In this document: positions 10,058 to 30,654 of the stretch, piece by piece
Numbering within the stretch: position 1 is the first letter of the stretch
Layout of the letters: each line of letters begins with the position of its first letter
NCBI RefSeq assembly: GCF_023055435.1
Contig: NW_025964112.1
Span: 25,234,001-25,298,000, forward strand
Direction: 5' to 3'
Length of the DNA stretch: 64,000 bases
From: Haliotis rufescens
Taxonomy: Eukaryota
Notes under the pieces: model-generated
What the model saw: the letters and a program-made list of their open reading frames with translations, nothing else
The model's database searches: none
Told to the model about the DNA's origin: nothing
Made by a program: the position numbers and the translations under genes

Positions 10058-12200
10058 TAATAATGCACTACACTGACATAGTAACTAACATTGTACTACA
10101 CCGACATAGCAAATAACATTGAACTACACTGACATATCAAATAACATTGAACTACACTGACATGGTAACTAACATTGCACTACACTGACATGGTAACTAA
10201 CATTACACTACACTGACATGATAACTAACATTGCACTACACTGACATAGCAACTAACATTGCACGACACTTACATAGTAACTAACATTGCACGACACTGA
10301 CATGATAACTAACATTGCACTACACTGACATAGTAACTAACATTGCACTACATTGACATAGCAAATAACATTGCACTACACTGACATAGCAAATAACATT
10401 GCACTACACTGACATGATAACTAACATTGCACTACACTGACATGGTAACTAACATTGCACTACACTGAGATGGTAACCAACATTCCACTCTTCTGACATT
10501 AAACTAACATTGCACTACTGTGACATGGTAACTAGCATTGCACTACATTGACATGGTAACTAATATTGCACTACACCGACATGGTAACTAACATTGCACT
10601 ACACTGACATGGTAACTAACATTGTACTAAATTGATATGGTAACTAACATTGCACTACACTGACATAGTAACTAACATTGCACTACATTGACATGGTAAC
10701 TAACATTGCACTACACTGACATGGTAACTAACATTGCACTGCACTGACATGATAACTAACATTGCACTACAATGACATGGTAACTAACATTGCACTACAC
10801 TGACATGGTAACTAACATTGCACTACACTGACATGATAACCAACATTCCACTCTTCTGACATTAAACTAACATTGCACTACACTGACATGGTAACTAGCA
10901 TTGCACTACATTGACATGGTAACTAATATTGCACTACACCGACATGGTAACTAACATTGCACTACACTGACATGGTAACTAACATTGCACTACACTGACA
11001 TAGTAACTAACATTGCACTACACTGACATGGTAACTAACATTGTACTAAATTGATATGGTAACTAACATTGCACTACACTGACATAGTAACTAACATTGC
11101 ACTACACTGACATGGTAACTAACATTGCACTGCACTGACATGATAACTAACATTGCACTACACTGACATGGTAACTAACATTGCACTACACTGACATGGT
11201 AACTAACATTGCACTACACTGACATGGACACCAACATTCCACTCTTCTGACATTAAAATAACATTGCACTACACTGACATGGTAACTAACATTGCACTTC
11301 ACTGACATGGTAATTAACATTGCACTACACTGACATAGTAACTAACATTGCACTACACTGACATGGTAACTAACATTGCACTGCACTGACATGATAACTA
11401 ACATTGCACTACACTGACATGGTAACTAACATTGCACTACACTGACATGGTAACTAACATTGTACTAAATTGATATGGTTACTAACATTGCACTACACTG
11501 ACATGGTAACTAACATTGCACTACACTGACATGGTAACTAACATTGCACTACACTGACATGGTAACTCACATTGCACTACACTGACATGGTAGCTACAGT
11601 TGCACTACACTGACATGGTAAGTTATTTTGCACTACACTGACATGGTAACTGACATCGCACTACATTGACATTGTAACTAACATTGCTCTACACTGACAT
11701 GGTAACTAACATTTCACTACATTGACATGATAACTAATATTGCACTACACTGACATGGTAACTCACTTTGCACTACACTGACATGGTAGCTACAATTGCA
11801 CTACACTGACATGGTAAGTTTTATTGCACTACACTGACATGGTAACTGACATCGCACTACATTGACATTGTAACTAACATTGCACTACACTGACATGGTA
11901 ACTAACATTGCAGTACATTGACATGGTAAATGACATCGTACTATATTGACATGATAAGTAACATTGCACTGTACTGACATGGTAACTAACATTGCAGTAC
12001 ATTGACATGGTAAATGACATCGTACTATATTGACATGATAAGTAACATTGCACTGTACTGACATGGTAACTAACATTGCACTACACCGACATGGTAACTG
12101 ATATTGCACTACACTGACATGGTAACTAACACTGCACTATTCTGACATGGTAACTGACATCGTACTATATTGACATGGTAACTAAGATCGCTCTACACTG
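10058..12200. repeat. 28-bp tandem satellite, consensus CACTACACTGACATGGTAACTAACATTG
   Basis: Period 28 (aacattgcac at 10981 and 11009). It starts where the 21-mer ends and stops at the Polinton terminus. Confidence 0.96.
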
Positions 12201-12321
12201 AGTGGTATAGGTAATGGGGTTTCTGGCTCACTTCCACTCGCGCCAGATTTATACGCAATGCTGCTTCTAGAGAGGGATTTTTTTAAGCAAAAATGATGAT
12301 GCGATTCAATGATCGTCACGA
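12201..12321 (+). repeat. Left terminal inverted repeat of the Polinton
   Basis: agtggtatag...gccagatttata...agagggatttttttaagcaaaaatgatgatgcgattcaatgatcgtca matches the reverse complement of 30302-30423. Confidence 0.9.
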
Positions 12322-12354
12322 TTCGTTTTAAAAGAATCATCAATATTAATTAAT

Positions 12355-13262
12355 AATGAATAAAATTAACTATAGCCCACGAGGATATTGGAAAGGTATA
12401 AGAGCAATACAAAAATTAGAGACTGCGACTAAGGTCTCTAAAGATGTGGCCAAGGATTGGCTAAAGAAACAAGCGATGTGACAAATGTACTTACCGGCAT
12501 CGCCTTATATCACGAGGAAGAAGTTTGATATTTTTACAACGAATGAAGTTCACCAGGCTGACCTCTTGCCATGGACCGCAAAACATATAAATACACTTTA
12601 ACTGTAGTGGATGTGGCTAGTCGCTACAAGGAGGCTGAACCGTTAACCTCGAACTATTCAACAGAAGTAGCTAATGCACTGAGCTGCATATATAAACGCG
12701 GACCACTAAAATGGCCCAAGTTATATCAAGTAGATCCTGGTCGTGAGTTTATGGGATACAGTAACTAAACTGTTAACAAATCACGATGTCGAAATCAGGC
12801 ATGTTGAAAAAGAGGCCCACCGTAGTCAAGCTATCGTTAAAAGATTTAACCGGACATTAGCGGAACGTTTGTTTGGATATCAGTATGGGATTCAAATAAA
12901 ATCAGATCGATTAAGATCAACCGAATGGGTGACACGATTATCAGCTGTTGTATCAGCACTGAATAATGAAGTAACGAGATTAATCAGGTAAGCAACCATC
13001 CGATGTGGTTAAAATGAAATCTGTGACTTCCGAATCTTCAGCACCGAAGAGAGGCAAAGAACAAAACCTTCCGGATAGAGTAAGCTTAAGATATTTATAC
13101 CAACCCAGTGAACTCGAAGAAGGCCAACGTCGTGCAACCAATCCGATTTGGTCTCTTAAGATATATAACATAAGTCGGTTGGTTATGACAGAAGGAGAGC
13201 CTATTCTTTATTATCTTCAAGATGGACCGGGCAGGGGAGTTGCCCATAGTCCCCAGCAATAG
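12355..13262 (+). pseudogene. Retroviral-like (rve/DDE) integrase of the Polinton, frameshifted
   Basis: PRGYWKG, NEVHQADL, YTLTVVDVASRYKEAEPL, QVDPGREFMG, V(K)RFNRTLAERL and RRATNPIWSL are spread over several ORF fragments. Confidence 0.9.
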
Positions 13263-16200
13263 AGTATTACCACCATAACCATAAGCATAGGTAGTAACAC
13301 CATCCTTATCAATCCATCTCTTTGTATCTAAGGGGAATAATGATGTCTTGTGCATTCTTAATCCATATATCCTGTGATTGTCACTTCTTAAAGTGTTCAT
13401 CTCGTGTTTGAATGTTCTGCCATTGAATAATGCTTCTTTATACTGTTCGTGTTTGATTTGTTTTTTAACCACATACTTCTTAACGCCTTTAAATTTTCTT
13501 ATCTCTCCATTATCGGACTTCTTTAAAGAATATATCTTAGGTCTTCATCCAGCATACTCCGCAATAGGGGTCCCAGCACATTCATCCTTCATCTTACCTA
13601 ACACCTTTTTATTTAATACGCTGTGCAGTGGATTATCTTTTGGGTAATCGCTCGTGTCGTACATACCTATTTTTTCTGCCATATCTTTATACACATCCTC
13701 GGTTTGTATTTCCATCAACAAAGAATCTGTGTCGGTATATAACACCTCGCATCTATCACTGAATTGGTTCTTAAGTTTGTTGTAATAAAAGTCATACATG
13801 AAGTGTTTTGACAAGTCAAGAATACTCATACCAACGTACACCAGTCTGTTGAATTTTATATTACTCTAGTGCATATGAAGTGCAGCTAGGTCGTTATCAA
13901 ATATCTTGCTTCTGTTAAAAGCCGGACTGGCTATAAGTTTCCTGAGTCTTTCGTCCATCAACATGCTTCCTTGGATTTTCCATAGTTTTTTCAAAGCTAT
14001 TCATGAGCTTATATAGGTTCTTTTCGAAATCGCTGGTAGCCATCTTTCTTAAATCTGTGTTCATCCTTATGTAGGGCTCCATCGAAGGTCTTTGATCAAA
14101 CTTTAGTATTTTCTTTAGTTTCATGACTAACGATAGATATAACTGGAGGTTACTGTAGTGAACTATATATTTTGTCTTATCCATCAAATTTGGTCCGAGT
14201 TTTTCTACATTAGCTAACCTAGTATTGCCCATCAAGGAGTGTTGATATTCCGACATCCAATCTTTATTAACCATTAATCTTTCGGGAGCTAGCGGATAAC
14301 TGTTATGGTCTTTATGCAACTCTTTTGGATATTCCAAGACAACTTCTAGTATGTACCCTTTATTCGCATCGATATTGTGGATATCATTCACATCGACCCA
14401 CTCAAAACCACCCGTGGGTAAAGGTCGAATCAGAGCCCATCCATACAAATTGTTGGCATCGAGATATAATATGTGAGTGTCGGGTTTACTCGGATCATAT
14501 CCTTCCACTAATTTATTATTAGCCTTAGAATACCTTTTTGCTGTCAACGATATACCACCTCTTAATCCTTTCTCAACAAACAAGTGCATATCATAATCAG
14601 TGAGTAGTTTTAGTCTTCTTCAACAATGCATCCCACAATAGTCCGGGAATGGAATAGTACCATGCCGGGTCCAAGCTGTATTGTTTTAAACATGTCTATA
14701 TAGGATATACACCTTTTCTCAACAACAAATGTCGTGTTAACCTTTCGGAATATTGATTTGTTATGGCAAAGTCATAGGGATTGTTCGCATTAGCTTAATT
14801 GTCCAGGGAAGATAACAGAAACTGCACGGAGTCTATGAATCTAAGCCTATTACATTGCTTTGTTCTAGCTTTCCCATCCTTTTCCGTATAATGTAAAGTT
14901 TTAGTCAACGAGAATTAGATATATTTTTCCATATTATTAGGAATACACGTTAAGCCGCCATCGGTCTTTGAGATAGCTTGCATAATGAGGTGAGAATCAT
15001 ATCCTCTAAGGTTGTGAAACACACCGTGGATGGGTATTGTTTGAGATATCATTTTTGTTTCAAGTTACACTAGTTATGCACGGCTCTCCGATAATTTCTC
15101 GTGACGTGGCAATGATCTCTTACGGAATCCCCATTCAGGGGTTTATAACATGACAAATTGTTGACTTCTTATAGGCCCTCCAATCACCCCTCGTAATACA
15201 CATGTGTTTCTTTCGCGATAAGTTTTCTCTGATAATTCTCTCTTTGTTTTGTAGGTATTCTAGGAACTTTTCCGCGGCGTCATACCAAAAGACGTTAAAA
15301 GATGGTACTTGTTGTTACCCTGTCTGGCGCTCGGCATAAAGGGGCTAAAACAAGGACTGGTGGGCTCGGAGTCAGTATACTGTGTCTGAGTTGTGTATTC
15401 ATGTTAAACTACGGCATGGTATTTCAGTGAGCTAGCACTATAAATTGGCATCAGTCCGGACTAGTACAAGCAGCCACACAAAGACATACACGTATATGCA
15501 CGTCGCTATATAAGTGCAATAATCTTGGACGCGATGTTAAACCCAATTCACCTCACCTCACCTCACCACAAGGAATATATTCTTGAGTTTTGTATGTAAA
15601 ACTACCTTCAGTATTGTGTTCCTTATTTTCTATAGGTTTGATAAGTGCTTCGAAGTCAGTGTAAATTATGTACGGTACAGGCATTTGATTACAATAATGT
15701 TCAAATTTTAGTATATTTTTTCCCTCTTTAGGCATTACAAGCTTGATAGCAGTCTGTCCAACACCTCTGCAGTCTTCTTTATGTGCTTCTAATAGATCTT
15801 GTCTGCTGTACCCATGCAGGCATCTTTCACCGAAATACTTCTTTTTCTTATGTTTTGTTTGATTGCATAATAGCCTGCTGAAACTCTTTATCCACGTATA
15901 ATGATATTTACAATCTTTTTTTATCAGAAATGTATTGATTCTGGGAATATATGCTGGGGCGGAGCTTATCCTGTGTACAACAATTCCTTTAAGAGAATGT
16001 CCGAAACGTTTATAGCTAAATTATTTTGATTTTCTGCCTTATCAATTTGTGAGATTGGTGTAGGTTCATCTATACCATCAAGGTTGAGTCCGTCGTTTTG
16101 GGGATAGCTAGAACGTCTACCCGGATTTTTGTCTGCGGGGAACATGGCAGATCTTATCATCATTCTGAAACAGTCATCACCTTTATTTTTTACATTAATT

Positions 16201-16916
16201 ATGACTTTTTTTCTTTTTATAATACGAGGGTAAATCTATATAAGATCCACCCTTTGAAAGGCATATAATTTGCATTCTCTAGATATAAACTATCGCTTCT
16301 ATCCACACCCCAACCCGAACCTCTATTAGTCCAGTGTTCTAAAGTTTCTTGTATCCGCTGAATGGAAGCATCTAATGATGTGCTTGTATCCACTGAATTG
16401 ATGTATCTAATGATGCACTTATAGACTCAGATTTGGTTATAACTTCTTGGTTGCTCCGGAAATAAGGTTCGGTATATTTGGTGTCATTTTTACTCAATGA
16501 CATTTTAACCGTCAGCTGGTATTTTATACTATTTAAATCATCTAACGTCTTGTTAATTTTGCTCTATACGATGGGTTTAACATCATTAACATCGATTTTG
16601 GAATTAATATCCATCTTCCATCCTCATAGGTATTTACCAACGTCGGCTGTGGGTACAAATCTTAACTCAACAACCATTTGATTTTTATCAACTTATTGAT
16701 TTTTATCAAGTAAATTATTCAATACAGCTTTTCTCATTCAAGAATAACTTCTCAGCCCACCTTTTTTCGCTTGAGCTTTGATTTCTCTAACAGTCTGGGG
16801 ATATTCCAAACGAATTAAGGTAATCAATTCAGCTTTTCTGATGTAGACCACGTTGTTTTGCCAAAGCCTTCAATTCTATGCAAAATGAGTCAAATGTTTA
16901 AATTGTTATTTTTCAT
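13262..16916 (-). pseudogene. Protein-primed family B DNA polymerase (pPolB), multiply disrupted
   Basis: YLDANNLYGWA, KLMN, YTDTDS, GKMKDE, IYTDFE (exonuclease), GSGWV, a degenerate Zn finger (ERCLHGYSRQDLLEAHKEDC), an endonuclease VII-like VRDHCH (~15110) and N-terminal ELKALAKQRGL. Confidence 0.93.
15279..15566 (+). mobile_element. 5'-truncated SINE (central domain resembles the Meta domain) inserted in pPolB
   Basis: cataccaaaagacgttaaaagatggtacttgttgttaccctgtctggcgctcggcataaagggg followed by a (CTCAC)n tail. It interrupts PolB between ...YIPCG and DAAEKFLEYL. Confidence 0.7.
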
Positions 16917-16920
16917 ATAT

Positions 16921-17127
16921 CTAAACACGTATTCTCCCCAACCTATTCCACTCGTTGATGTAATCTCTCTTCCTAGCGTAAATTATCTGGTTCCTGACCC
17001 TATCAGCGCTGTGTTTCTTGCATAAACAATAACAACCTTTGACCCCTATCCCACATACAGAACATGTATAATTACATTTCCTTGTCTGATGTAAAAGGCA
17101 TGAATCCCACAATATATACCAACGCAC
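16921..17127 (-). CDS. Small Cys-rich (possible Zn-binding) Polinton protein
   Basis: CSVCGIGVKGCYCLCKKH followed by a basic tail. The start is uncertain. Confidence 0.4.
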   Translation of the reverse strand: MRWYILWDSCLLHQTRKCNYTCSVCGIGVKGCYCLCKKHSADRVRNQIIYARKRDYINEWNRLGRIRV

Positions 17128-17300
17128 CTTTGTTGCATTGAATTGGCGTCCCCATGAGTGTAAATGTGCACCGATTCATGGTTAAACACCTATCATATCA
17201 TTTGTCTAAATGCAAATCACATCTCCACTTGGTGAGCAGTCAGCGCTATTTATAGAAGGCGAGTCATCGCTATTTATGTTGCCAGCTCATACGTAATAGA

Positions 17301-17678
17301 TCATAGCTTATGCATAATAATGTAGCTAAATATGGACACACAAGTCAACCCAAAAACTATTAACGCTATCTCGCGATCTTTCTGAGCCTTTGTCGGTGTA
17401 TAAAACTGACTTATTGTTGGCCTTGGCAACATTCTTAAACGTTTGAATTGAATGTCCTTGTTTACGAAGTTCATGATTAGGATATCTTTAGTAGTCATAG
17501 CTAGGCCTACATCTAGGACCATCATACCGATATCATAACCATTAAAATCTAGCTTGGGTGGTGTGGCTTCAGTAATCATTTTAGCTTAACGGGCATAGCC
17601 AATGGCAAAGCCGCTGACCACCACTGAATGATACATTGCATTTACCAACATTTTACCGTCTGTAACTGGAGTAATCAT
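17301..17678 (-). pseudogene. Two small predicted membrane proteins of the Polinton, fused or disrupted
   Basis: MITPVTDGKMLVNAMYHSVVVSGFAIGYAR*...PKLDFNGYDIGMMVLDVGLAMTTKDILI, then an ORF ending IALIVFGLTCVSIFSYII. Confidence 0.5.
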
Positions 17679-17682
17679 ACTT

Positions 17683-18069
17683 TTATAACATTACATGAGG
17701 GTTTAACTCTAATTGAACCTCATCTTGTGCAATTGCAATCAGTGTTTTCTCTTCTCTGGTCTTATAAAACAACCATACCAGCGCTATAATGCCTATGGCA
17801 TAGGGAGTTTTAATCGGGTGTGTGCTATGTTCAGTATTGTGTATTAGTTTTGCCTTTCTCAGTAGCGCACCCTTCCTACCAGCTGCAACTTTTCGAGGAT
17901 TCTTAGTTACTCTGACTTGTGGTGCAATCACTTGCGGTGATTGTGCAATCGGAGCTTGTGGTGTTTCCCCAATTGCTTTTGTTTCCTCATTCACTTGTTG
18001 TGCAATCGGAGTTTCCTCGTTCACATGTTGTGCAATCAGAGATTGTGCAATCGGTATTTCCGTCTCCAT
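17683..18069 (-). CDS. Polinton protein with PIAQ repeats, a basic KNPRKVAAGRKG motif and a C-terminal hydrophobic segment
   Basis: Open 128-aa frame with an ATG and the segment YAIGIIALVWLFY. Confidence 0.6.
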   Translation of the reverse strand: METEIPIAQSLIAQHVNEETPIAQQVNEETKAIGETPQAPIAQSPQVIAPQVRVTKNPRKVAAGRKGALLRKAKLIHNTEHSTHPIKTPYAIGIIALVWLFYKTREEKTLIAIAQDEVQLELNPHVML

Positions 18070-18071
18070 TA

Positions 18072-18495
18072 TTAGTAAGTTAGCCTAGCCATTATTAAAG
18101 TGGTGATAAGTGGGGCTCCGTATCTATGATAAAACTCACAGCTTACTGCGCTTATAGCGTGTTTGATGAATGGGTCTTTCTCGAGAGATTTGAATGAATA
18201 CGGTCGATTTTTTGCTCGGATAGGAAGAAAAGTACTAGCTATAGCTGTGTATAGTTGTAACATAGCCGAACCTATTGTTTTAGTCATGGTTGCTTCCAGT
18301 CTAGACTTGTAACACGCATATAGTTTTTTAATTTCCTCGCCGGTCATGTTATCATTTTTTTTCAGTGGTATAATATTGCCCCAAATATTAGGAACATTTT
18401 CCACCTGCTACCAAAGCCGCGAGTCTTTCTCTATGTTGATCTCTATGTTGATCAACTACAGGTTCTTGGAGCAGTTGTTCGATAAATTACATATC
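18072..18495 (-). pseudogene. Polinton hypothetical protein
   Basis: RERLAALVAGG...YLGQYYT then EEIKKLY...LEKDPF, with a frameshift or stop near 18380. Confidence 0.5.
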
Positions 18496-18589
18496 CAATA
18501 CAGCCTGAAATAATAAATTGTTGCTAAAGAATGAGGATTTCAAACCACATTATTACATAATAACCGCTAATGTTCAATTCATCACATTT

Positions 18590-18750
18590 TGCTAGATTTT
18601 TGCTATTTTTGCTAATTTGGCTATATTTTTGCTATAATTTTGTTATTTTTGCTTTAATTTTGCTTAATTTTACTATATGTTTGCTATAATTTTGCTATAA
18701 ATTTTGCTATTTTTACTGTAATTTTGCTATTCTTTGCTATTTTTGCTGAG
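18590..18750. repeat. AT-rich degenerate ~11-bp repeat (TTTGCTATAAT) inside the Polinton
   Basis: Repeated tttgcta(t)aattt units between the ATPase and the small-ORF cluster. Confidence 0.75.
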
Positions 18751-19333
18751 CAATTGAATAAGTAGCTGGTTGATCAGTTTTTAATACCAGTTTACAGTGC
18801 TTCGTTTCTGTTAACACTTTTCTGATTTTATCTCACTCGAGCTTGGTAGAAATAACATCATTTTTGCGTAGACATTCCTCTAAAGAATCTCAGTCTTTGC
18901 AACGAAGCAGGGCTACCCATTTGGTCTGCTCTCTGAGGTCTTTCAGAACAGATTTTTTTTGAGTAAGTACCCAAACACTTTGCTCCATATGACGTCCGGA
19001 GAATGCTAATATAAAAGCATATCTTTCTTTTTGGTAAGTTGATTCTCCTTTGTATTTTTGGTGACATACTGGTAAACAGTCTTCTAAACGATCGCTCGGA
19101 TCAACTTTGTACACCCCGGGATCATTCATTAGCCAATCTCTCGAAAGGTATGTTTTATTAAAGTTTATAGTCGGGCACAGAATAATAGTATGGGCGAAAA
19201 CATCCCGATAATGACCTTGTAAAATATCTAGAATAAAAGCTGTTTTTCCGCAACCCATTTGCCCACAGATAATAGGGCAGTGCGGTTCTTTAGGTAAAAG
19301 ATTATTAATAGATCGCTTGCACGAATCTTCCAT
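18745..19333 (-). pseudogene. A32/FtsK-like genome-packaging ATPase
   Basis: Walker A GQMGCGKT, IILCPT, and SGRH..QSVWVLTQK...DLREQ. The Walker B region appears deleted and the gene is frameshifted. Confidence 0.85.
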
Positions 19334-20445
19334 TCTGTATATTAAGTTGCGCGTCCATAATCACGTACAAATATATGTTAAATTTACCAGCCTGTTTGGC
19401 GAGCTTCGTTATCTGTATAGTAACACCCTCACTGGCATTTTCTATTCTCCGCCCACTACCGTGTAGTTGGTCATCGTCCGTGGTTCGCATGTCGAGCCAT
19501 AGCGCATACTTTGTGGTAAGGAATTAAGCCATCGTTACACCCCCGAGAGACAGATCTTTCACGACTGCATTAACTTCTGGGCTTCGTTTTATAGAAGGGA
19601 GTTTTTTAATCTCATCCCACTGTTGATATGCTCGCATACCTTGACTATATAGTTGATAAGGCACTCCCTCAATAGTCAATTCTACTTTTGTAATCTTGGA
19701 GTAGTAGAATGCCTCGGTATCTCTTGCAAATGCTTCAGAAGGGTCATCGAACAACATTAAAATACCCTTCAAAGATCTAGCAGGGTCATTTAGATTGATA
19801 TTCCACGTCAAATCTCTTTCGTTTCTGGTGATCTTTCGGTGTCAAAGCACGCGATCGTACAAAATGGCTAAACTTCTGGTATACTGGTTACGAATTTCAT
19901 ATCATACTCCAGTGAGATATTGTCAATAGAATGTGACTATCTAGTAATTCAAAGTCGAGCGGAATATAGAATCGGTTAGCAAATGCATCAGCAACAGCCT
20001 TATCTTCTACGATGGTATTATCGCCAGTAGAAGCACCCACACACAGTCTCAATGTGTTCTGATTACAAATACCTTGGTACTGTAAGTTTTCCCGTTCTTT
20101 AGCCATTCTCCAGAGATCCATGTAACAGAAGTATATATCGCTGTCGTCAATACTCAAAACCTCATTACCGCTAATTTTAATCACGATTTTCTTAACAATC
20201 ACACGACCTATGTTCTGCACGAGCTCCCTGGCCATGTCGGTTGAAGTCAAACTAATAGTAAATGATAGTTGGGCAGTTCCTGGAACTAACATATCGTGAG
20301 AGCCTAGATTAGGAAAGCGAACGTAGAAGTGTTTGATTCTGATCAATGGTACTTGGGTTATTAGTTATAGTTACAAACTGGCAAATTGCTTTGACCCCTA
20401 ATGGATCCCGAAGTCTACGTTGTGGGTTTAACTTTATTATTTTAT
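19305..20445 (-). pseudogene. Putative double jelly-roll major capsid protein
   Basis: Fragments KLNPQRRLRDPLGVK..ITNNPSTIDQNQ, VRFPNLGSHDMLVPGT, WNINLNDPARSLKGILMLF, KITKVELTIEGVP and YALWLDMRTTDDDQLHGSGRRIEN. Total size (~380 aa), beta-rich character and position next to the ATPase fit an MCP. Confidence 0.75.
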
Positions 20446-20447
20446 TA

Positions 20448-20723
20448 ACTTTGACTCTCGCGTTAACCGGTGGTGGTGGTACAGGAGGTGGCACACCATC
20501 TAGTGATAAGGGTGGTGTAAAAGAGTGTATAAAAAAGCATTTAAAAGCATTAGGAGAAGCACTGGGAAATCTCTCTGGGAAAGGCGCATCTGCACTTCCC
20601 GGTATAATAGGGAGTATAGTTTCCTGGCTCTTGAATTTATAAGGAAAGACCGCCACTTGGCTTAGTCAAAACTTGTGGGCACTGATCATAGCAATTGCCG
20701 GGCTGTTGTACGTATCCGCTTAA
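20448..20723 (+). pseudogene. C-terminal remnant of an amphipathic/transmembrane Polinton protein
   Basis: LTLALTGGGGTGGG...LKALGEALGNLSGKGASALPGIIGSIVSWLLNL*GKTATWLSQNLWALIIAIAGLLYV. The 5' part appears to be missing. Confidence 0.6.
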
Positions 20724-20724
20724 G

Positions 20725-21900
20725 ACTATTTATCCAAATCATGAGTAAACCAACCGCGACTCCACATACTGTAAGCGCTGTTTTTTCATCGATTTGTTGT
20801 TGATTTTTAGCGGCAATATATGGTGACACTTGTGGTTGTGCGTCAGTAGATGGTTGTGAAACATGTGGTGTCTGTACCTTTACTGTTCCCATTTCACCTG
20901 TGTTTGTTTGCGTTATTAATTTGGTGTTAATATCTGAATTTATACCTGGTTTTTGTTGATAGGTAGCAATAACAATTTTATTATTATAACCTATCACTTG
21001 GCCGATCTTAAGTTCCATATTACTCGGAGACATGTATAGTCCTGCCCAATAAAAATAGTCTACTTTGGATTGAGTGTACTGTAATACATCTTGATAACGT
21101 TATATAGAAGATGGTATGTCAACTGGTAAATTAATAGCATCCTCTACGTTTGCGACAAACTGTTTTGCACATTGAGCACGGTCCCAAAACCAATCATTCC
21201 CGTTCGTGTTTGTGATTGTGCACGAAGAATTGCCCATACATAAGTTCTTATTGATTAATTAACTCTTACAACTCCTGGGGTAGTAAAATTATTTTCTGTT
21301 TTATCACACAGAAATTCTTTCCAAGCGTTTGCGGTATCGTTTAGTTGCACAAATTATGTAACAATATAAGCTAAACCACACTTAAAACTCATAACATCTC
21401 CTCTCCAATTGTTACTCGAAAGTTCCCAGCCATGATTAAGATTATGCATTCTTACAAAAAGATTAGTTTTTCTGTAACAACTTAAATGGATTGAATGGTT
21501 GATGAGTTTTTTTAACTAAATCTTCACTTTCTTCTTTATCAGTTCTTTGTCCACTGTACGGAACACCTAGACCATGGTTAAGTCCTTTAATACGCCAATT
21601 TTTTACTCGTAGAAATATTAAATTCCTGACAAAAACGTTCATACACGATCCTATTGTACGGATTATTTGTGGAATTCCATGCTTGATCCTGCAGTAATGG
21701 AGCACTTATTTATTTAAGTATACGTCTAAATCTCATAGTACACGTGAAATGATAAAACAGACTTATTTAGTTCAAATCCTGGGGCATAAAGAGATACACC
21801 ACATCCTGTTGTGGCACACCATATGGCAAAGTTTAACTGGTTTTGCAAAAATTGCATTGGATTTTGGAACCATTCATGCACCATTTTATCGCTAGTTCCT
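20725..21900 (-). pseudogene. Polinton hypothetical protein with a C-terminal hydrophobic anchor
   Basis: QNQLNFAIWCATTGCGVS (~21800), RFHVYYEI, QFVANVEDAIN..VDIP..RYQDVLQY..SKVDY, SPSNMELKIGQVIGYNNKIVIA, and C-terminal TALTVCGVAVGLLMIW. Confidence 0.6.
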
Positions 21901-22029
21901 GTGACCCTGTATTTTTCAAAGATATCGAGAAAAATTTAATAAAAAACTAAGCACCAGAGGCACTTACTTAAATCGACTTATTCGTAATGTAAATTGATTT
22001 CATATTTAAGTTATGATATAGTATCTTTG

Positions 22030-22605
22030 TATATTTAATCTGTTTGGTACACTCCCAGGAATAACAAACGGTCAGTCTATTCAACTGCTTCATACTATCG
22101 ATAACTCAGCTGGGCAACTTGAAGTTGCTCTATGCAATGTAACGTATTACCCGCGGTGGACCAATATAAGTGCTGTGAGAGAAAATAATAAGTTATTGAT
22201 AGATAGAGACGTGTACACTATATCTGATGGGTATTACAGCGTATGCTGTCTCAATGATGAAATATTTAAGCCTTTTGGACATAGTCTCAAACAAACTGAG
22301 CCGAATGGGATGCTGATTTTAAACAATGGAGAAAGGGGTGTAACTCTTCTCCCGTACTTCGCAGATACACTTGGATTGTTTGGACAAAAAACAATAATAG
22401 GACCCAATGGAACATCGCATGGAGTTAAATTACCCGATTTAGTCAAAGATGAAAAAAACAATAGTGGTAGAACGGAATCTTTCTCATCATTACAATATAA
22501 AAGTTAAAGCGGGGCCTTTATTTCAGATCTCAAAATGTCTGCATTAGATGTAAAACATCAAACTGTGCATATAGGATACTTGAGTGTAACACTCCATATT
22601 ATAAA
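22030..22605 (+). pseudogene. Putative minor capsid protein (penton-like)
   Basis: IDNSAGQLEVALCNVTYYPRWTNIS..NN..TISDGYYS matches the pattern of Polinton minor capsid proteins. It is frameshifted and internally deleted. Confidence 0.55.
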
Positions 22606-23189
22606 TAATGGTTGATTCATCGGGGCCTGGAACGCATAACCTTAGACAATGTAATAAATTGCGCTATCCAATCTTGGAGACACAGAAGGATTTGGTAAAC
22701 CCGGTACCGATGGCAAGTTATACGCTTTACACTTACAAGATAATGTATACAAGCGAAAAGAAGTTGTATTCACAGGAAATCTAGATTTAAGTGATGTTGA
22801 TGTTAGTAGACTCAATAAAAACACTTCATACAATCTTACTCACAATGATGATAATAAATGGACTATGGTCGAAGAAAAAATCGAGTGGCTACTGAATATC
22901 GTCATTGCCCCACCATATGTGATGACGGGTAAGGTACATCAGTTAACTAAGATAATGAATAGTGGGATCGTACTCAAGACTTATATCCCCACAAAACGAA
23001 AAAGTGTGTTAGTCGCTCCCCTACCAGAAAACCGAGGTTATATAAACATGCACAAAAGTTCAGCGCCACCCACCATATTTGTGAGCTGTTACTTTTGGCA
23101 CTTAATGATGATTATTATTTATTACGTGATGTACGATTGTTATTAGCCGTATATGTAAACCTCATGTGATGCAAAAGTCGACCCAAAGC

Positions 23190-24631
23190 AAGTTTATCTT
23201 GTGTTCCAAAAGAATATGAGCAGAAAGGAATTTTACCGAAGACCAGAAATTGAAGGATTAGAAAACATTGAAAAATTTTTTTTGTCATGTAACTGTCATG
23301 ATATCAGCAGACCATATCAGGTGTTACATAGACACTGATATTGCAAGACAGAAACGTCAGTAACGTGTGTATGATCCACGGACATTGACCACAGCTTCAA
23401 CCCTACGCCTCATACTCATTACAAGTCGTTGAATGCTTCTCTGAGGCAAACGGATCCTTCTTCATGAAGTGCGGCTTCAAGTCCAGCGAGATTTTGAACT
23501 GGGGGATCACGATGTCTGATTTTCCGCCCAAGAATGTCCCAGAGATGCTCAATCGGATTAAGATCCAGACTACAGACCGGCCAAGGAAGAGTGGCAATAG
23601 CTTCCTGACGCGAATAAGCCAAAACTGCATTGTCGTCCATGAAAACAGGTCTTGTCTGAAGAGTATGGTTGTCAAAGTGAGGGACTACCACTGGACGAAG
23701 AATGGCATCTTGGTATCATTGGCCATTCAGGTTTCCACGAATTGTCACCATCGGAAGTTTGCAGCCGAAGGAAACACAACCCCATATCATGACAGACCCC
23801 CCGCCACATGCTAAGGTCTTCTTGATGTTCCTTGGTGCAAAACGAGTGTAACGTTGCCTCCAAACACGTATTTGACCATCAACAGTTCGTAGCAGCATTC
23901 GACACTCGTCAGACCAATGGATCCTTCTCCAGTTGGCCAAGTTCCATCGACTACGGGCACGACACCATATCAGACGATTCCGCATGTGCCTCTCAGTCAG
24001 TTGAGGACGTTTTACTGGTCTTCTGGCGTTATAAAAAGCCGCTCTGAGGCGACGCCTTACGGCCATCGTCAAGAATCTCTGATGGGTAATCCACTGCAGT
24101 CTTAAATCTGTTGAAGTGGCAAATAGATTTCGTCTGACTATCCTGAAAAGATGTCTATGCTCTCTGTTAGAGGTCTTTCTTGGCCTACCAGACCTATGCC
24201 TGTCATTGACATCATTGGTTTGACCATGTTTGACAATCAAACGAGTGATAACACTGTGATGACGACCCATTTGTCTTGCAATGGCCCTGCATGACATGCC
24301 AGCATTTTTCATGCCTATCACTTGCCATCTTTCAACGTTCGTTAACTTTCTCCTCACCATGGCTGATTTTCAACCTCTCTTGGAAGGGGAATCTCACACA
24401 GGAGCAAAATGCAACTACTTGTCTGAAACTTGAATTTCACTATTTACAGGGTAGGGGAACTGCAGCAACACGTAAAGCACGCTTTCCTTGTGGTATCTGG
24501 ACAAATTTGGGTTCATGGATAAATATGGATGCCTAATTCAGTCATACATCATCATATTTCGTATTTCTGATTCCAACACGTGAAATCAAGAGACTATGAA
24601 TATGATGGCGCTTAACTTTTGTGCATGTGTA
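23190..24631 (-). mobile_element. Tc1/mariner DNA transposon nested in the Polinton; transposase 23400-24360 is frameshifted
   Basis: HTH with SGRPRKT, WSDE, GGGSVMIWG, MDDNA and DLNPIEHLWD. A TA-bounded Tc1-like end (ttaacttttgtgcatgtgta) lies at 24612-24631. The left end is not defined. Confidence 0.88.
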
Positions 24632-25022
24632 TATGTTATTGAGTCATCCAGCATTAAAAATGTTAGTTTAAATTTGGTTACTGAATTCAATGATTTAAAA
24701 CAGAACTTGAGTGCTATAGCTGATCTTTCTACACTTATTATTGAAGTCTTGTTTTGGGGATGCATCGGAAGATGCCTTCGAGATATTACCAGGTCTATCA
24801 ATTAAATGGCTCAAGAAACACGAGTGTCGACGTTGCAGTATTATTTATATGGGAGTATCACCCATTGCAACCCTTGAGGGGGTCCAAGTTAATAAAAGTG
24901 AAAGCATTTCTCTTACTAAGATATTTATGCTGCATAATGTACATTTAATAAGGTTGATGTATACTCCCAAAACGTTTAAGCAAGATCAATTAAAGACTAT
25001 TATATGATATAATAATATACAT

Positions 25023-25528
25023 TATGAGTTTATATCTGGTGCTCGATGAAGCATGTGAAAAGATGGAAACTGTTGATGAATTTCGATTACATCAAATAAG
25101 CGACATAAAACATCGAATAGGGAAGGAGAGGGAGTTTAGACTTGAATTGTAACAAAAGTGTCGCAGAGCTGTGAATGTTCTCGATGGAGTTGACACTGCA
25201 CTTGTAACAGCTGGCATGGGACTCGGTGTAGCCGGTGTTGTTAATTATCAACTATAATTGCTGCGCCCAGCATAATTGGTAGCAGCTAGAGGCTCAGGAC
25301 TGGCAGGAATAGCGATAAAATTTATTTCTCGTAAGTTGCAAAAGAAAGCATTAAAACATGACAATATTCGGATTGAGGATCATATTTCAACAGCACTGGC
25401 TGAGTTTTGTCAGAAATAACCAAATACAACGCATTGAAGTAGGAGATTCGATCAAATTCTCATAAGACTAGTGGTATTAGTGAAGATGAGAAAAAAAGTT
25501 CACAGAACAGGGGAGACAACAAGCACTG
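25023..25528 (+). pseudogene. Polinton two-helix membrane/coiled-coil protein whose 3' end is displaced by the DIRS element
   Basis: MSLYLVLDE...FRLHQISDIK...RRAVNVLDGVDTALVTAGMGLGVAGV..STIIAAP..GLAGIAIKFISRKLQKKALKHDNIR, with stops and frameshifts. Confidence 0.6.
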
Positions 25529-25931
25529 CCTGACCCCATTAGCAAAACCTTTGTGCGACTACCGCCGCGGACCAAACTGTCAGCTACCGCTTGACAAGAC
25601 GACTTCCGCCGCCTGGCCCATATACGTGGCAATTGTTTGCCCCAACGTATGTTATTTTACAATTCCCCGGCTGAAAAGTTGGGAAAGACAAGGTTCCCAC
25701 TGAGAAGCAGATAACCCCGGAAAGGTTCCCGCTGAAAAGCAGGTAGCCTTAAGCACGAGTATTAATTTGGAAGCAAGTTAATTCGTTTCTACCAGTGTAG
25801 CCCACAAGAACCCCGCCACAAAGCACCAGAGTGCTACCCCACACCCATGGCCACCCGATACGCGGAGATAGCATTGTTGCCCCGCTTGCCTATGTACTGA
25901 AAAGAAACACTAACCTGTGGAGATAACATCC

Positions 25932-26479
25932 TTACTGGCACAAAACAAGTGCCAGGGCATGCAATAAATTGTCCGTAAACACACACAATCCTTTGTCACT
26001 GAGGTGGACGCCCTCCCAGGCGTACCATGTCTTGTCTGATGCCAGGATCTGGGGATGTGGCACCATTGTACCGCCGAGCTCTTTGACTCGGTTGGCCAGT
26101 CGGCGGTTGATATTCTTCCGCATCCCCTCGATCTTTAGTGGATCCCTGGCATCGTGCCAGTAGCGCCTCGGCAGAATTGAGGATATGATGATCTTGGTGT
26201 CAGGAAGCTGGAGTTGTATCTGAAGGATTGATGCCACCATGTCAAGGTAGAGTTGGCTGCCCTTGACCGAGCACAGGTCGTTGGAGCCCAGGTGAATGAT
26301 GAGGGCTCTGGGGGTGCGCCATGTCGCCTTGACCTGTGCATCCAGAATGGTGTCCAGCTCCTTCCACCTCATCCCCCCTCATGCCAGCCATAGCATCCTC
26401 GGTTGGTTCGGACTGGTGCCCTTCAGGAGCAAGTACTGCCATGCCCTGGCTATGTAGCTGGATCCCACCATCCAAACTG
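25932..26479 (-). pseudogene. SGNH/GDSL hydrolase carried by the retroelement
   Basis: Block I VWMVGSSY, block II GMRW, block III IIHLGSNDL and block V EGVHLS, with one in-frame TGA at 26379-26381. Confidence 0.85.
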
Positions 26480-26523
26480 TAAACAATAAGAAGTGTAGTA
26501 AGTACCATGAAAGACTATTTGAA

Positions 26524-27440
26524 TTAATTGTGTAACATTGAATTTGTTGGTAAGCGTATGTAAGCATTGTAGCAATCTGATTTCCACCTGCCGTATTGTT
26601 GTATGAGGTGTTCGGGCACCCTGTTCATGGCTGCTGATGTGGCTGCCCCAATGTGGAAGGAGTGCGAAGAATAGCAAGCCGTGTTTATGTTGCTGTGTGC
26701 TAAGGCCTTTTTTAGGAGTGCCTGGAATTGGTACCTTGTAACGCGGGAATGGTCGAAATGAACGAATGCATGTTGTGGGCCGGAGGGGCGCGTTTCCAGG
26801 TAGTGCTTGATGGCGACTACCGGACATAGTGGATTACCTGGTATCGATGACATTGTAACTGTTGTCCCCATCCTGTACTGATCAGACTTTGAGTGTGGTA
26901 AATGGATTGAAAGCTGCTGGGGGCTGCCCGAGAAGCTTAAATTCTGGATGGCGCAACCTGTTTTTGAGGGTCCAGTTTGGACCAGTTCGCTAACCCTAAA
27001 GAAACCGAAAAAGGCTGTGCAGTAGACTGCCTTGGACAGTCTGACTTCATATGCTGATGAGCATACGTGAGGCAGATTGTTGGTTACTACCTGCAGCAGA
27101 TCTGCAGTGATCGGTTTTCTGGTGTCTGGTCGGCCCGCTGATTTGTGTAAGCCTGTTAAAATCTTGCCTACCATGAAATGGTTTGTACAGTCGGTGAGCC
27201 CGTGGAATTTGTGGTGTGAAGACAGCGCTGCAATGTAAGTCTTGACTGTGTTAGGGGAGTGGTGAGTGACTGAGCGATAAGCAATGAAGTTTACTGGACT
27301 GGCCACACCTCTTGTAGCTGGTGTGTGGACCGGAACTGGTGCAAGGCATTGATGCCTGTTTGGTAGGTGGCCCATGTATTTGTAGACAGAGATTGTTGTA
27401 GGAGTCTGCCGGCTTCCTGCCTCAGATCAGCCATATGTTG
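26524..27440 (-). pseudogene. Tyrosine recombinase
   Basis: FFGFFRVSEL, SKSDQ, SHSFHIGAAT (the canonical HSFR Arg is replaced by His) and GRWKSDCYNAY. Confidence 0.92.
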
Positions 27441-29050
27441 CATGGGATAGGTGTGGGGTTCTGGTCTGCGGCTGGTGCTTCCTCTCGGAAGCGTTTGAGC
27501 TGAAACCTCGAGAGAGCATCGGCAATAGTGTTAGCAGTGGAACATACATACTTTGCCTGAAACATAATATTATACCGGAGGCACTGCAGGATTAGGCGAC
27601 GGAGTAGGCTCATCACTCTGGGGGCATTGGTCGACTGTTTGTTGATTATTGCTACGACGGCTTGGTTGTCGCAGTAAAAGAGCACCTTTTGTTTGCGAGT
27701 TGCTTGCCCCAAAGTTGGATGGCCAGTGTGATGGGGAACAGCTCCAGGAGCGTTAAGTCCCGTGTAGTTTCATCCGTCACCCACTGGGTTGGCCATGCGC
27801 CGTTAAACCATTTGCCCTGCATGAAGGCCCCAAAGCCGGCACCACCCGCTGCGTCTGAAAACAGCTGGAGGAAATCGCTGTCTACCCATAGTTGGTCCTG
27901 AAACACTGAAATGCCATTATAACTCGTAAGAAATGTTAACCACATTTGTAGGTCTTCCTTGACCCAGCTGGTAATCCTAATGTGGTGAAATGGTTGCTTA
28001 CCTTTGCTAAGCAGATCGATTAGCCTTCGGCTGAATGCCCTTGCCATTGGTATAGCCCTGCACATAAAGTTAAGCTTGCCTATGAGGGACTGAAGGGCCC
28101 TTTTTGTTACCTTGATGTTACCTGTTGACAGGATGTCTTGGATTTCCCTTGTCGCCTCCTTGATCTTGGACTCTGGGATTCTGATCTGCATTGCATTGGT
28201 GTCGATTTCCAGCCCTAAGAATGTCAGTTTGGTCGTGGGGCCCACCGTCTTGTCGTGCGCAATAGGGACCCCAAGCTGTTCTAGTGTATTCACGCATCCG
28301 TTGATGTTGTCCGAGCAGTGGCTGGTGCCTGCTGTGCCCCCCGTTAGGAAGTCATCCAGGTAATGCATGATCTGACACGTTGGAAGATGTGATTGCATGC
28401 ACCATTGCAAGAAGGTACTAAACGTTTCAAATATGGCGCAAGATATGGAGCAGCCAAATGGTAAGTATTTATCAATAGAACTCACCTTCAAATCTGATGC
28501 CTAGTAGCTCGAAATCGGATGGGTGGACTGGTATGATTCTAAAGGCCGACTGAATGTCAAATTTTGCTAGTAGTGCTCCCTTTCCCAGTTGTTGAACCAT
28601 ATGCGTAGCTCCAACGGAGCAGGCCTCTGTGTCTATGAAGTCATTTATAGATTTACCCCTGGGATAGGATAGATGGTGAATTAGACGGAATTCCTCCGCA
28701 TGCTTACCCAGATGCTGACCATAGCCTGGCTGCTTCTTGGGCACCAGGCCTATTGGGGATACTTGGAGGTTGTCCAGGGGGGTGTCCTTGAAGGGGCCCG
28801 CCATCCTGCCAAGGTCGACTTCCTTTTGTAGTTTTTGTTTCACGTAGCCTACCGTGTCTTGGTGCGTGGCTGATCGCAAGTTTCGTGCCAGGCGACCAAT
28901 GCGGCTTCCCTGGGACTTGAGCTTAAAGCCAAAGCTAAAACCTGCCCATAAATAATTTGCATCTCTGTAATTGACCCTAGCATATTGGCGTAACCAGGGT
29001 GCCATTTCATTGAGATCCACGGGGGAAGGGGCCATTGAATTTACCTGCCT
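27422..29050 (-). pseudogene. Reverse transcriptase and RNase H of the DIRS/Ngaro element
   Basis: SPIGLVPKK, FRLIHHLSYP, KFDIQSAFR, LPFGCSIS and YLDD for RT. FSDAAG, LLELFPI, CDNQAVV and NTIADALSR for RNase H. Two frameshifts. Confidence 0.93.
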
Positions 29051-30147: not shown

Positions 30148-30301
30148 CACGAAAGGTCGAGGTGGTGAGTTGGTATTCCACAAGTGTAAAAATGTCCCGA
30201 GGATGAAGTTCGGGAGTAGAACGGAATAAATTTAGTAGTTAGTACTAAATGTAAGTATGAGAAATAATAGAGAATATTTTCATTACAAATTTAGTATAGT
30301 C

Positions 30302-30423
30302 TCATGACGATCGTTGAATCACATCATCATTTTGACATAAAAAAATCCCTCTGTAGTGGTGGTATAAGTATATAAATCTGGCTCTAGTGGGGTTGTGATA
30401 AAACTGTCATTGTCTATACTACT
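30302..30423 (-). repeat. Right terminal inverted repeat of the Polinton
   Basis: Reverse complement reads agtagtatag...gccagatttata...agagggatttttttatgtcaaaatgatgatgtgattcaacgatcgtca. Confidence 0.9.
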
Positions 30424-30654
30424 CACGTGTAGCAGGCTATCATGTCGGTTGCGGTGATGCGTTTAGGCGATTGGTTTTATTGTCATCTGCTTTGTTTGTT
30501 TTTTTTGTCATTAAATTTCATTTTTCCGGACAAGGTAATGTTAAATTTTAGAAACTTTGACAAAAATTACCCAGATACTTAAATGACAACTTTTCATGCA
30601 ATGTTACTTGGGTGACGTTTCTTTTGCGGTTCAGTATATTACCTGGTGCTTCAC

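What the first reader, a model, noticed from the sequence alone, without database searches (positions are those of the whole stretch)
17301..25528. No maturation protease but at least five predicted membrane proteins: a possibly membrane-containing virion
Seen: hydrophobic or amphipathic segments in ORFs at 17301-17475, 17470-17678, 17683-18069, 20448-20723, the C-terminus of 20725-21900, and 25023-25528. I could not find an adenain/Ulp1-like His-Asp-Cys protease. Established: canonical Polintons encode such a protease, whereas tectiviruses use an internal membrane with many small membrane proteins. Inference: this lineage may assemble or enter cells by a membrane-based, protease-independent route.
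Basis: inference. Interest (0 to 1): 0.7.

Follow-up and report, generated by a model that had tools for sequence, protein, structure and literature searches.

The report
Protease-less Polinton with membrane-protein module
This is a decayed copy of a widespread virus-like element in animal genomes that lacks the usual capsid-maturation protease and keeps a conserved set of predicted membrane proteins beside its capsid genes, which suggests, but does not show, a particle built around a lipid membrane.

Summary
The region belongs to a decayed, high-copy endogenous Polinton (12199-30425). The protease was not lost in this copy. Relatives with inverted repeats at both ends (L006, L021) have a packed gene order with no free slot. 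A profile of five Polinton adenains scores at most 4.1 bits in the window and 81 related loci, yet recovers 4 of 5 left-out controls at 55-114 bits. The hydrophobic genes are real, syntenic and under purifying selection. By eye the capsid protein matches Polinton-3_NV, already tabulated as protease-negative in 2014, so that half is probably known. Five lineage-specific predicted membrane proteins, absent from 8 control loci, were not found described in nine literature searches. The two large ones have no N-terminal signal and no recognisable fold. Best reading: a capsid with an internal membrane, working like a tectivirus (0.45). Close rival: a naked capsid with membrane-lytic or egress proteins (0.33). 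No particle has been seen.

The parts
12199..12321 (.). Left terminal inverted repeat (decayed)
   Evidence: Inverted pairs 12199-12253/30371-30425 (71%) and 12267-12321/30302-30356 (87%)
12356..13244 (+). RVE integrase, broken by stops and frameshifts
   Evidence: Pfam rve E 1.3e-5 on one fragment; family profile 177 bits
13278..16641 (-). Protein-primed DNA polymerase B, broken; an insert of a very high-copy repeat lies at about 15277-15548
   Evidence: tblastn to relatives 34-82% over fragments; relatives hit Pfam DNA_pol_B_2; insert from depth and loose ends
16924..17159 (-). Small Cys-rich protein (about 90 residues in relatives), broken
   Evidence: Family profile E 3.7e-8
17301..17487 (-). 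F144: C-terminal remnant of a ~140-residue protein with hydrophobic segments at both ends and a charged helical middle
   Evidence: Profile positions 63-137; 16 of 16 relatives pass the hydropathy threshold, shuffles 5%; median dN/dS 0.14
17472..17678 (-). E79: conserved ~79-residue protein, moderately hydrophobic, last ~10 residues missing here; transmembrane status not supported
   Evidence: 61-69% identity to relatives; 4 of 15 pass, shuffles 28%; median dN/dS 0.15
17683..18069 (-). D150: low-complexity protein with a conserved basic motif followed by one predicted membrane segment
   Evidence: Open frame of 128 residues; 13 of 16 relatives pass, shuffles 1%; median dN/dS 0.57
18072..18550 (-).
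   Evidence: anchor within the first 40 residues in 20 of 20 relatives, mean 0.0 K/R before and 3.0 after
18749..19333 (-). A32-like genome-packaging ATPase, broken
   Evidence: Pfam Pox_A32 weak on the window, 4.7e-8 in L006; profile 222 bits
19305..20434 (-). Major capsid protein, Polinton-3_NV-like by eye; frameshifts, an internal gap and loss of the first residues
   Evidence: 56-85% identity to relatives over fragments; Pfam Capsid_N E 3.4e-4, below cut-off; compared by eye with P3_NV
20442..20738 (+). B450: last ~100 residues of a ~440-residue protein (long coiled coil, hydrophobic helix, Gly/Pro hinge, amphipathic and hydrophobic helices)
   Evidence: Profile positions 335-436; alignment; model of a relative, pLDDT 71; helical moments
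20725..21947 (-). A430: globular domain with nearly invariant Cys/His residues, disordered Pro/Ser/Thr stalk and C-terminal anchor; broken over several frames
   Evidence: model of a relative, pLDDT 87.6; no fold match
22022..22504 (+). Penton (minor capsid protein) candidate, broken
   Evidence: Profile positions 2-101, E 2.3e-11; the family profile also hits a similar-sized protein in 5 of 8 control loci; the penton label is inference
22330..23300 (+). Unassigned sequence in the slot where relatives carry a fibre-like gene; continues at about 24540-25030
   Evidence: No match in any fetched locus, Pfam or the protease profile; covered by sister copies
23300..24560 (-). Tc1/mariner transposon insert (limits approximate)
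   Evidence: Pfam HTH_Tnp_Tc3_2 2.3e-9 and DDE_3
25023..25528 (+). GasderminX-like gene with a central hydrophobic stretch, broken
   Evidence: Profile positions 10-129, E 1.4e-23; homologues in protease-bearing L089 and L091 at E 1.5e-51 and 4.5e-61; the name is inferred from PMC8502044
25530..30230 (-). Tyrosine-recombinase retrotransposon insert (DIRS/Ngaro-like; limits approximate)
   Evidence: Pfam Phage_integrase, RVT_1, Lipase_GDSL_2; GC step
30302..30425 (.). Right terminal inverted repeat (decayed)

Best explanation
The element is a decayed copy of an integrating animal virus lineage, probably the Polinton-3_NV clade, that joins a Polinton replication/integration block to a capsid module with no adenain. 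Shown: gene order, absence of a detectable adenain, and five lineage-specific genes (A430, B450, C260, D150, F144) with conserved hydrophobic segments, plus E79. Inferred: these proteins sit in a host-derived membrane on which the capsid protein and penton assemble, so the shell is scaffolded by a membrane instead of cleavable core proteins. The four genes directly behind the ATPase (C260, D150, E79, F144) would form the membrane side of the packaging vertex and tie DNA and capsid to the bilayer, as P20/P22 do in PRD1. B450, a coiled coil ending in membrane helices, would pierce or fuse a host membrane at entry. A430 would be a tail-anchored structural or attachment protein.
For: Fixed order around the capsid genes: B450 and A430 in 21 of 21 loci holding MCP and penton; C260 15, F144 14, E79 13, D150 12 of 17 loci holding MCP, ATPase and integrase or polymerase. 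The order is kept when the replicase is swapped for a helicase (L004) or the integrase is absent (L021), so these genes travel with the capsid module. All usable pairs have dN/dS below 1. Hydropathy exceeds shuffles for F144, D150, C260, B450, A430, while MCP, ATPase and integrase never pass. None of the six genes is found in 8 control loci with the same polymerase type, 5 of which carry an adenain-like gene; those loci have 0-3 hydrophobic ORFs each. A430 (0 of 17) and B450 (0 of 18) have no hydrophobic segment in the first 40 residues, which fits cytosol-facing anchors better than secreted envelope glycoproteins. PRD1 uses small membrane proteins as the conduit under its ATPase (PMC4267777, passages).
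Against: No particle, lipid or proteome data exist here. No sequence link to phage membrane proteins was found in PHROGs; the best for B450 is a weak tape-measure hit, E 0.009. Protease-less capsid modules are common among Polinton-like viruses (PMC4642659), and two control loci (L084, L086) show neither the protease nor this module in the part fetched, so losing the protease does not require these genes. The GasderminX-like gene coexists with adenain. E79 fails the hydropathy test, 6 of 17 A430 fall below it, and the chance rate for B450 is 41%. Print reads hydrophobic genes of related viruses as core membrane-lytic proteins or holins (10.1101/2024.03.25.586562; 10.64898/2026.10.13.758929).
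Confidence: 0.45

Rival explanations
1. Naked icosahedral capsid. The protease is simply absent because the capsid module is of Polinton-like-virus descent. The hydrophobic proteins are packaged membrane-lytic proteins, like adenovirus protein VI, or non-structural viroporins, holins and factory anchors used for entry and egress.
For: Polinton-like viruses lack the protease (PMC4642659). B450 ends in amphipathic helices with moments of 0.34-0.51. Protease-bearing elements also carry hydrophobic or amphipathic genes, including GasderminX-like and pX-like ones (PMC8502044). A preprint reports holin-like genes across this virus group.
Against: It needs five or six lineage-specific membrane proteins beside the capsid genes, against 0-3 hydrophobic ORFs in controls. 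C260, D150 and A430 have single clean anchors with large soluble parts, unlike lytic peptides.
Confidence: 0.33
2. Capsid wrapped in an outer envelope gained by budding, with A430 as attachment protein and B450 as fusogen, analogous to nematode Mavericks.
For: Enveloped Mavericks have been proposed (10.1101/2022.07.12.499685). A430 has a globular head, a stalk, a C-terminal anchor and a median of 3 N-glycosylation sequons.
Against: No N-terminal hydrophobic signal in 0 of 17 A430 and 0 of 18 B450; MCP has as many sequons (median 5), so they say nothing. A fibre-like gene and a penton candidate suggest an exposed capsid.
Confidence: 0.1
3. Maturation is still proteolytic, by a protease too divergent to detect (A430 with its Cys/His residues, or the unassigned sequence in the fibre slot) or by the vOTU-like domain of the polymerase.
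For: A430 has three Cys and two His that are nearly invariant. One control protease scored only 9 bits when left out. Cys and His motifs lie N-terminal in the polymerases. About 1.4 kb of the window element is unassigned.
Against: Profile-profile comparison of the adenain alignment with 11 families gives probabilities of at most 0.4%. Complete relatives have no unassigned ORF of 70 residues or more. L004 has a helicase-type replicase without those motifs but the same capsid module.
Confidence: 0.09
4. Artefact of decay: the protease was deleted from this copy and the hydrophobic frames are chance.
For: This copy has several deletions and insertions, and no full sister copy from the same host could be read.
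Against: Relatives with inverted repeats at both ends lack the protease and keep all the genes in order under purifying selection.
Confidence: 0.03

Closest known systems
Polinton-3_NV / Polinton-N1A_NV clade of Nematostella vectensis (PMC4028283 Table S1 and Fig. S3; PMC11296320)
   Same: Capsid protein collinear with P3_NV from end to end by eye; ATPase present; protease scored absent in Polinton-3_NV, N1, N1A and N1B.
   Different: No score or tree with P3_NV could be computed. The passages read describe no membrane-protein module. Table S1 scores the penton of Polinton-3_NV as absent, whereas a penton candidate is present here. Whether P3_NV carries the hydrophobic genes was not seen.
Canonical Mavericks/Polintons, Beta adintoviruses (Polintoviricetes; PMC8502044; control loci L089, L091)
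   Same: Same polymerase type (39-43% identity), RVE integrase, inverted repeats, A32 ATPase, GasderminX-like and fibre-like genes.
   Different: They carry adenain, and L089 has a PF21738-type capsid protein; this lineage shows neither. A430, B450, C260, D150, E79 and F144 are not found in them.
Polinton-like viruses (Aquintoviricetes, such as Gezel-14T/PgVV)
   Same: Capsid module without protease (PMC4642659); print puts the P3_NV capsid beside the PgVV group (PMC4028283, PMC11296320) and notes octocoral, hydrozoan and bivalve ATPases closest to Aquintoviruses (10.64898/2026.06.19.733378).
   Different: Animal host, RVE integrase and mostly pPolB; no lipase found; relatedness to PgVV was not computed here.
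Tectivirus PRD1 (PMC4267777)
   Same: Protein-primed linear genome, jelly-roll capsid, packaging ATPase, several small membrane proteins (partly from general knowledge). This is the working model for function.
   Different: Bacterial virus without integrase. No sequence similarity to its membrane proteins was found. Resemblance of design only, not membership.
Nematode Mavericks with the fusogen MFUS-1 (10.1101/2022.07.12.499685)
   Same: A Maverick with a membrane-anchored protein, proposed to form lipid-containing particles.
   Different: MFUS-1 is an 866-residue glycoprotein-B-like protein with a signal peptide; the proteins here are 79-470 residues, and the two large ones have no N-terminal signal.

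Membership tests
Canonical Polinton/Maverick (Polintoviricetes, adintovirus) | Protein-primed DNA polymerase B | tested here: met
   Window fragments match relatives that hit Pfam DNA_pol_B_2; L004 has a helicase instead
Canonical Polinton/Maverick (Polintoviricetes, adintovirus) | RVE integrase | tested here: met
   absent in L021
Canonical Polinton/Maverick (Polintoviricetes, adintovirus) | Terminal inverted repeats | tested here: met
   Window; L006 99 nt at 100%, L021 133 nt at 99%; none found in L004 and L005
Canonical Polinton/Maverick (Polintoviricetes, adintovirus) | A32-like ATPase and penton | tested here: met
   Pox_A32 4.7e-8 in L006; penton by profile similarity to control elements and position, inferred
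Canonical Polinton/Maverick (Polintoviricetes, adintovirus) | Adenain/Ulp1-like maturation protease | tested here: not met
   At most 2.3 bits with the full profile and 4.1 bits in leave-one-out runs in the window and L002-L082; controls 55-114 bits in 4 of 5, 9 bits in the fifth, 96.5 in a sixth locus
Canonical Polinton/Maverick (Polintoviricetes, adintovirus) | Maverick-type capsid protein (Pfam PF21738) | tested here: not met
   L006 MCP has no PF21738 hit at E 0.1; control L089 hits at 7e-56; BLAST to control MCPs E 0.001 at best
Polinton-3_NV clade | Capsid protein related to P3_NV | tested here: inconclusive
   Collinear with shared motifs along the whole length by eye; no score or tree was possible
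Polinton-3_NV clade | Protease absent | tested here: met
   Table S1 of PMC4028283
Polinton-like viruses (Aquintoviricetes) | Capsid module of MCP, penton and ATPase without protease | tested here: met
Polinton-like viruses (Aquintoviricetes) | MCP or ATPase phylogeny within the class | not testable with these tools
   No named reference sequences were available to the tools; no PDB match for the MCP profile
Internal-membrane viruses (tectivirus-like design) | Lipid bilayer under the capsid | not testable with these tools
   Needs particles
Internal-membrane viruses (tectivirus-like design) | Several conserved integral membrane proteins beside capsid and ATPase genes | tested here: met
   Predicted by hydropathy and synteny only
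Internal-membrane viruses (tectivirus-like design) | Homology to tectivirus membrane proteins | tested here: inconclusive
   No such PHROGs hit among 29 proteins; short membrane proteins are hard to detect
Enveloped Maverick with glycoprotein fusogen | N-terminal signal peptide ahead of a large ectodomain and anchor | tested here: not met
   0 of 17 A430 and 0 of 18 B450 have a hydrophobic segment in the first 40 residues (hydropathy only)
Enveloped Maverick with glycoprotein fusogen | Known fusogen fold | tested here: inconclusive
   Fold searches of A430 and B450 models listed none; whole-chain models can miss domains
GasderminX of Beta adintoviruses | Sequence homology to the published proteins | tested here: inconclusive
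   Homologues sit in protease-bearing elements of the matching polymerase type; the published sequences were not in the stored, cut supplement

The most novel reading that the evidence does not exclude
A large, still active lineage of animal integrating viruses builds a tectivirus-like particle with an internal membrane and no proteolytic maturation, using a module of five or six membrane proteins without detectable relatives, including a confidently modelled protein with no fold match. It would be a 13-15 kb animal virus with the membrane-scaffolded design known from tectiviruses and giant viruses.
Probability: 0.4. Interest if true: 0.85.

Novelty: new variant of a known kind. Interest (0 to 1): 0.62.

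Why it matters
Polintons are proposed to link bacterial tectiviruses, which have an internal membrane, to adenoviruses, which have none, and to giant viruses, many of which do (general knowledge; PMC4642659 for the proposed ancestry). Whether any Polinton-sized eukaryotic virus has a membrane is open, and print states that no Maverick-Polinton virion has been observed (10.64898/2026.06.19.733378). This lineage gives a concrete test case: a compact genome, a defined list of candidate membrane proteins, more than a thousand relatives of each large protein and many copies in one host. Surveys seeded with adenain (PMC8502044) would have missed it by design.

Tried and rejected
No host genome was held and the metagenome loci could not be searched by handle, so sister copies were not read whole; laid contigs were short and none spanned the element. 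No RNA holder was listed; depth in one run guessed to be RNA was not used as evidence. Viral contigs gave no member of the lineage with the window MCP, the MCP alignment or B450; the divergent-MCP alignment was too variable to scan, so how far the module extends along the MCP family is untested. Genome contigs gave one decayed 4.6-kb contig. No match in the phage collection. PDB sequence searches with MCP and A430 profiles gave nothing under E 0.3. Fold searches: A430, best Foldseek E 0.70 in PDB and 0.62 in BFVD, best VIA Z 4.6 (rmsd 6.3, 98 aligned), with no protease among the listed rows; B450, only generic helical bundles, best Z 13.1 (rmsd 1.9, 117 aligned) to a designed protein, and BFVD E 0.03 or worse. 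These blanks do not show a new fold. ESM Atlas gave no usable hit. No verdict on ATPase-C260 binding was obtained. Motif searches of the stored adintovirus supplement found none of the lineage's motifs, but the file is cut. Five look-ups of earlier findings gave nothing relevant. Rejected: that 20448-20723 is a small membrane protein; that E79 is demonstrably transmembrane; that the GasderminX-like gene marks protease-less elements. Rows dropped: proteins under a family-specific length and duplicates before hydropathy counts; pairs with synonymous difference outside 0.05-0.65 before dN/dS; control loci L090, L092 and L093 were not annotated by ORF (8 of 11 were).

Full report
Setting. The window looks like animal DNA (inference from a 21-nt satellite and several transposons). 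A decayed Polinton lies between inverted repeats at 12199-12321 and 30302-30425. It holds an RVE integrase, a protein-primed polymerase, an A32-like ATPase and a capsid protein, all broken, plus a Tc1/mariner and a tyrosine-recombinase retrotransposon insert. No host genome was held. Contigs of four public runs cover all 30 bins with very many copies at 85-99% identity, so the family is high-copy, but no piece spans it.

Relatives. The capsid fragment found 444 longer proteins among 860 candidates, the best at 56-68% identity. An alignment of 44 of them fetched 80 metagenome loci, the best of 118 confirmed, and one genome contig. Named records include the sea slug Elysia marginata and contigs filed under clam symbiont bins, which I take as host-derived (inference). 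The long loci share one order: GasderminX-like, fibre-like, penton, A430, B450, MCP, ATPase, C260, D150, E79, F144, an optional 100-residue gene, integrase, replicase, small Cys-rich gene (the letter-number names are mine and give rough lengths). B450 and A430 are in 21 of 21 loci that hold MCP and penton. Of 17 loci with MCP, ATPase and integrase or polymerase, 15 hold C260, 14 F144, 13 E79 and 12 D150; L047 and L067 hold none and L002 only C260. L002 and L067 are visibly fragmented; L047 was not inspected. L006 and L021 have inverted repeats at both ends (99 nt at 100%, 133 nt at 99%); L004 and L005 show none. These four have no unassigned ORF of 70 residues or more.

Protease. Pfam found none in 116 window segments or 30 proteins of three relatives. 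Pfam is weak here: it hit 4 of 5 control proteases only at E 3e-4 to 0.04. So I fetched 11 viral loci with the same polymerase type, annotated 8, and built a profile from five adenain-like proteins with the His-Asp-Cys pattern. Left out in turn, four were recovered at 55-114 bits and one at 9 bits; a sixth locus scored 96.5. The best score in six frames of the window and L002-L082 was 2.3 bits with the full profile and 4.1 in leave-one-out runs; a more permissive run on the element alone also gave no hit. Profile-profile comparison with 11 gene families gave at most 0.4% probability. A430, the best hidden candidate because of nearly invariant Cys and His residues, models at pLDDT 87.6 as a mainly helical domain, a disordered stalk and a terminal helix; what the fold searches gave is under Tried and rejected. 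Remaining gaps: about 1.4 kb in the window's fibre slot is unassigned, and the polymerases keep Cys and His motifs where PMC11161782 describes a vOTU protease domain.

Membrane proteins. With a 19-residue hydropathy threshold of 1.6, relatives pass as follows, shuffle rate in brackets: F144 16 of 16 (5%), D150 13 of 16 (1%), C260 20 of 20 (28%), B450 18 of 18 (41%), A430 11 of 17 (18%), GasderminX-like 9 of 9 (25%), E79 4 of 15 (28%); MCP 0 of 34, ATPase 0 of 28, integrase 0 of 7, penton 3 of 16. The segments sit at the same relative place in each family. Median dN/dS over usable pairs is 0.14 (F144, 13 of 120 pairs), 0.15 (E79, 16 of 105), 0.57 (D150, 12 of 120), 0.31 (C260, 24 of 190), 0.28 (B450, 21 of 153), 0.15 (A430, 13 of 136), against 0.11 for MCP; all are below 1 (pairs are not independent). 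B450 models at pLDDT 71 as long helices followed by hydrophobic and amphipathic helices. None of A430, B450, C260, D150, E79, F144 is found in the 8 control loci, whereas the GasderminX-like and fibre-like genes are found in L089 and L091 beside adenain. Two controls with other capsid types (L084, L086) show neither the protease nor the module in the part fetched.

Mechanism. The six genes flank the capsid and ATPase genes and stay with them when the replicase is a helicase (L004) or the integrase is missing (L021), which points to a role in the particle (inference). A430 and B450 lack an N-terminal hydrophobic signal, and C260 has an N-terminal anchor followed by basic residues, which fits large domains facing the cytosol (inference). 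I favour assembly of the shell on a host-derived membrane, with the genes behind the ATPase forming the membrane side of the packaging vertex as P20/P22 do in PRD1 (PMC4267777), and B450 acting at entry (0.45). The main rival is a naked capsid with membrane-lytic or egress proteins (0.33). An outer envelope (0.10), a hidden protease (0.09) and decay (0.03) are less likely. None of these steps beyond gene content is shown.

What is known. By eye the capsid protein is collinear with P3_NV. Table S1 of PMC4028283 scores Polinton-3_NV, N1, N1A and N1B as protease-negative, and PMC11296320 says the 3_NV and N1A_NV capsids are distinct from the Maverick lineage and lie beside the PgVV group. Polinton-like viruses lack the protease (PMC4642659; PMC5499653). 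A 2026 preprint notes octocoral, hydrozoan and bivalve ATPases closest to Aquintoviruses, and a coral study found some elements in the PLV clade. So a protease-less animal Polinton is probably known in outline. I found no description of this membrane-protein module or of an internal-membrane proposal in nine searches; subscription journals and Repbase are not covered, and supplements of the bioRxiv preprints could not be seen and may annotate these genes.

What I read. Passages only: PMC8502044 (plus two searches of its cut supplement), PMC11161782, PMC11296320, 10.1101/2024.03.25.586562, 10.1101/2022.07.28.501842, PMC5499653, PMC4642659, PMC4267777, 10.64898/2026.10.13.758929, PMC10120064, 10.1101/2022.07.12.499685. 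Passages and section 6: 10.1101/2023.10.06.561300. Parts 1-3 of 5: 10.64898/2026.06.19.733378. Passages and supplements 1 and 4: PMC4028283. The labels DIRS/Ngaro and SINE, and the membrane status of adenoviruses and giant viruses, are from general knowledge.

Verdict. Observation partly confirmed with corrected anatomy; interpretation partly supported. A new variant of a known kind: a protease-less animal Polinton lineage with an apparently undescribed, conserved module of predicted membrane proteins. Interest 0.62.

Noticed in passing
L004:9970-13596 (-); fragments in L067 and L077: The same capsid and membrane module is paired with a 1209-residue superfamily-1-like helicase replicase (Pfam AAA_30, AAA_19, weak HNH) instead of pPolB.
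   Followed up: partly
L021:1-13235: Element with inverted repeats at both ends and all capsid and membrane genes but no integrase; a perfect 24-nt hairpin lies at 134-192.
   Followed up: partly
window 12356-17159: The integrase-polymerase-Cys-rich block is inverted relative to L006, while the capsid block keeps its order.
   Followed up: no
window 22330-23300 and 24540-25030: About 1.4 kb in the fibre slot matches no fetched locus or library but is shared by sister copies in the host; it includes open stretches of 162, 73 and 95 residues.
   Followed up: partly
window about 15277-15548: Insert of a very high-copy repeat inside the polymerase gene, with a tRNA-like box in the loose ends; probably a SINE (label from general knowledge).
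   Followed up: no
window about 25530-30230: Nearly intact tyrosine-recombinase retrotransposon with reverse transcriptase and a GDSL-lipase-like ORF, inserted between the GasderminX-like gene and the right repeat.
   Followed up: no
window 18560-18745: Low-complexity stretch of short repeats between the ATPase and C260 genes, not seen as a gap in intact relatives.
   Followed up: no
window 1-10070 and 57000-64000: A 21-nt satellite of about 440 copies with strong strand skew at the start; a skewed region of even composition at the end was not examined.
   Followed up: no
L006:913-1788 (-), L021:944-2218 (-): The fibre-like gene carries repeats that match phage tail-fibre families (PHROGs E 5e-17; Pfam Phage_T7_tail 1e-11) and has homologues in protease-bearing L089 and L091.
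   Followed up: partly
L002; P0001, P0017, P0018: Members of this lineage are filed in public records under an archaeal bin and under bacterial symbiont bins, probably as host-derived contamination.
   Followed up: no
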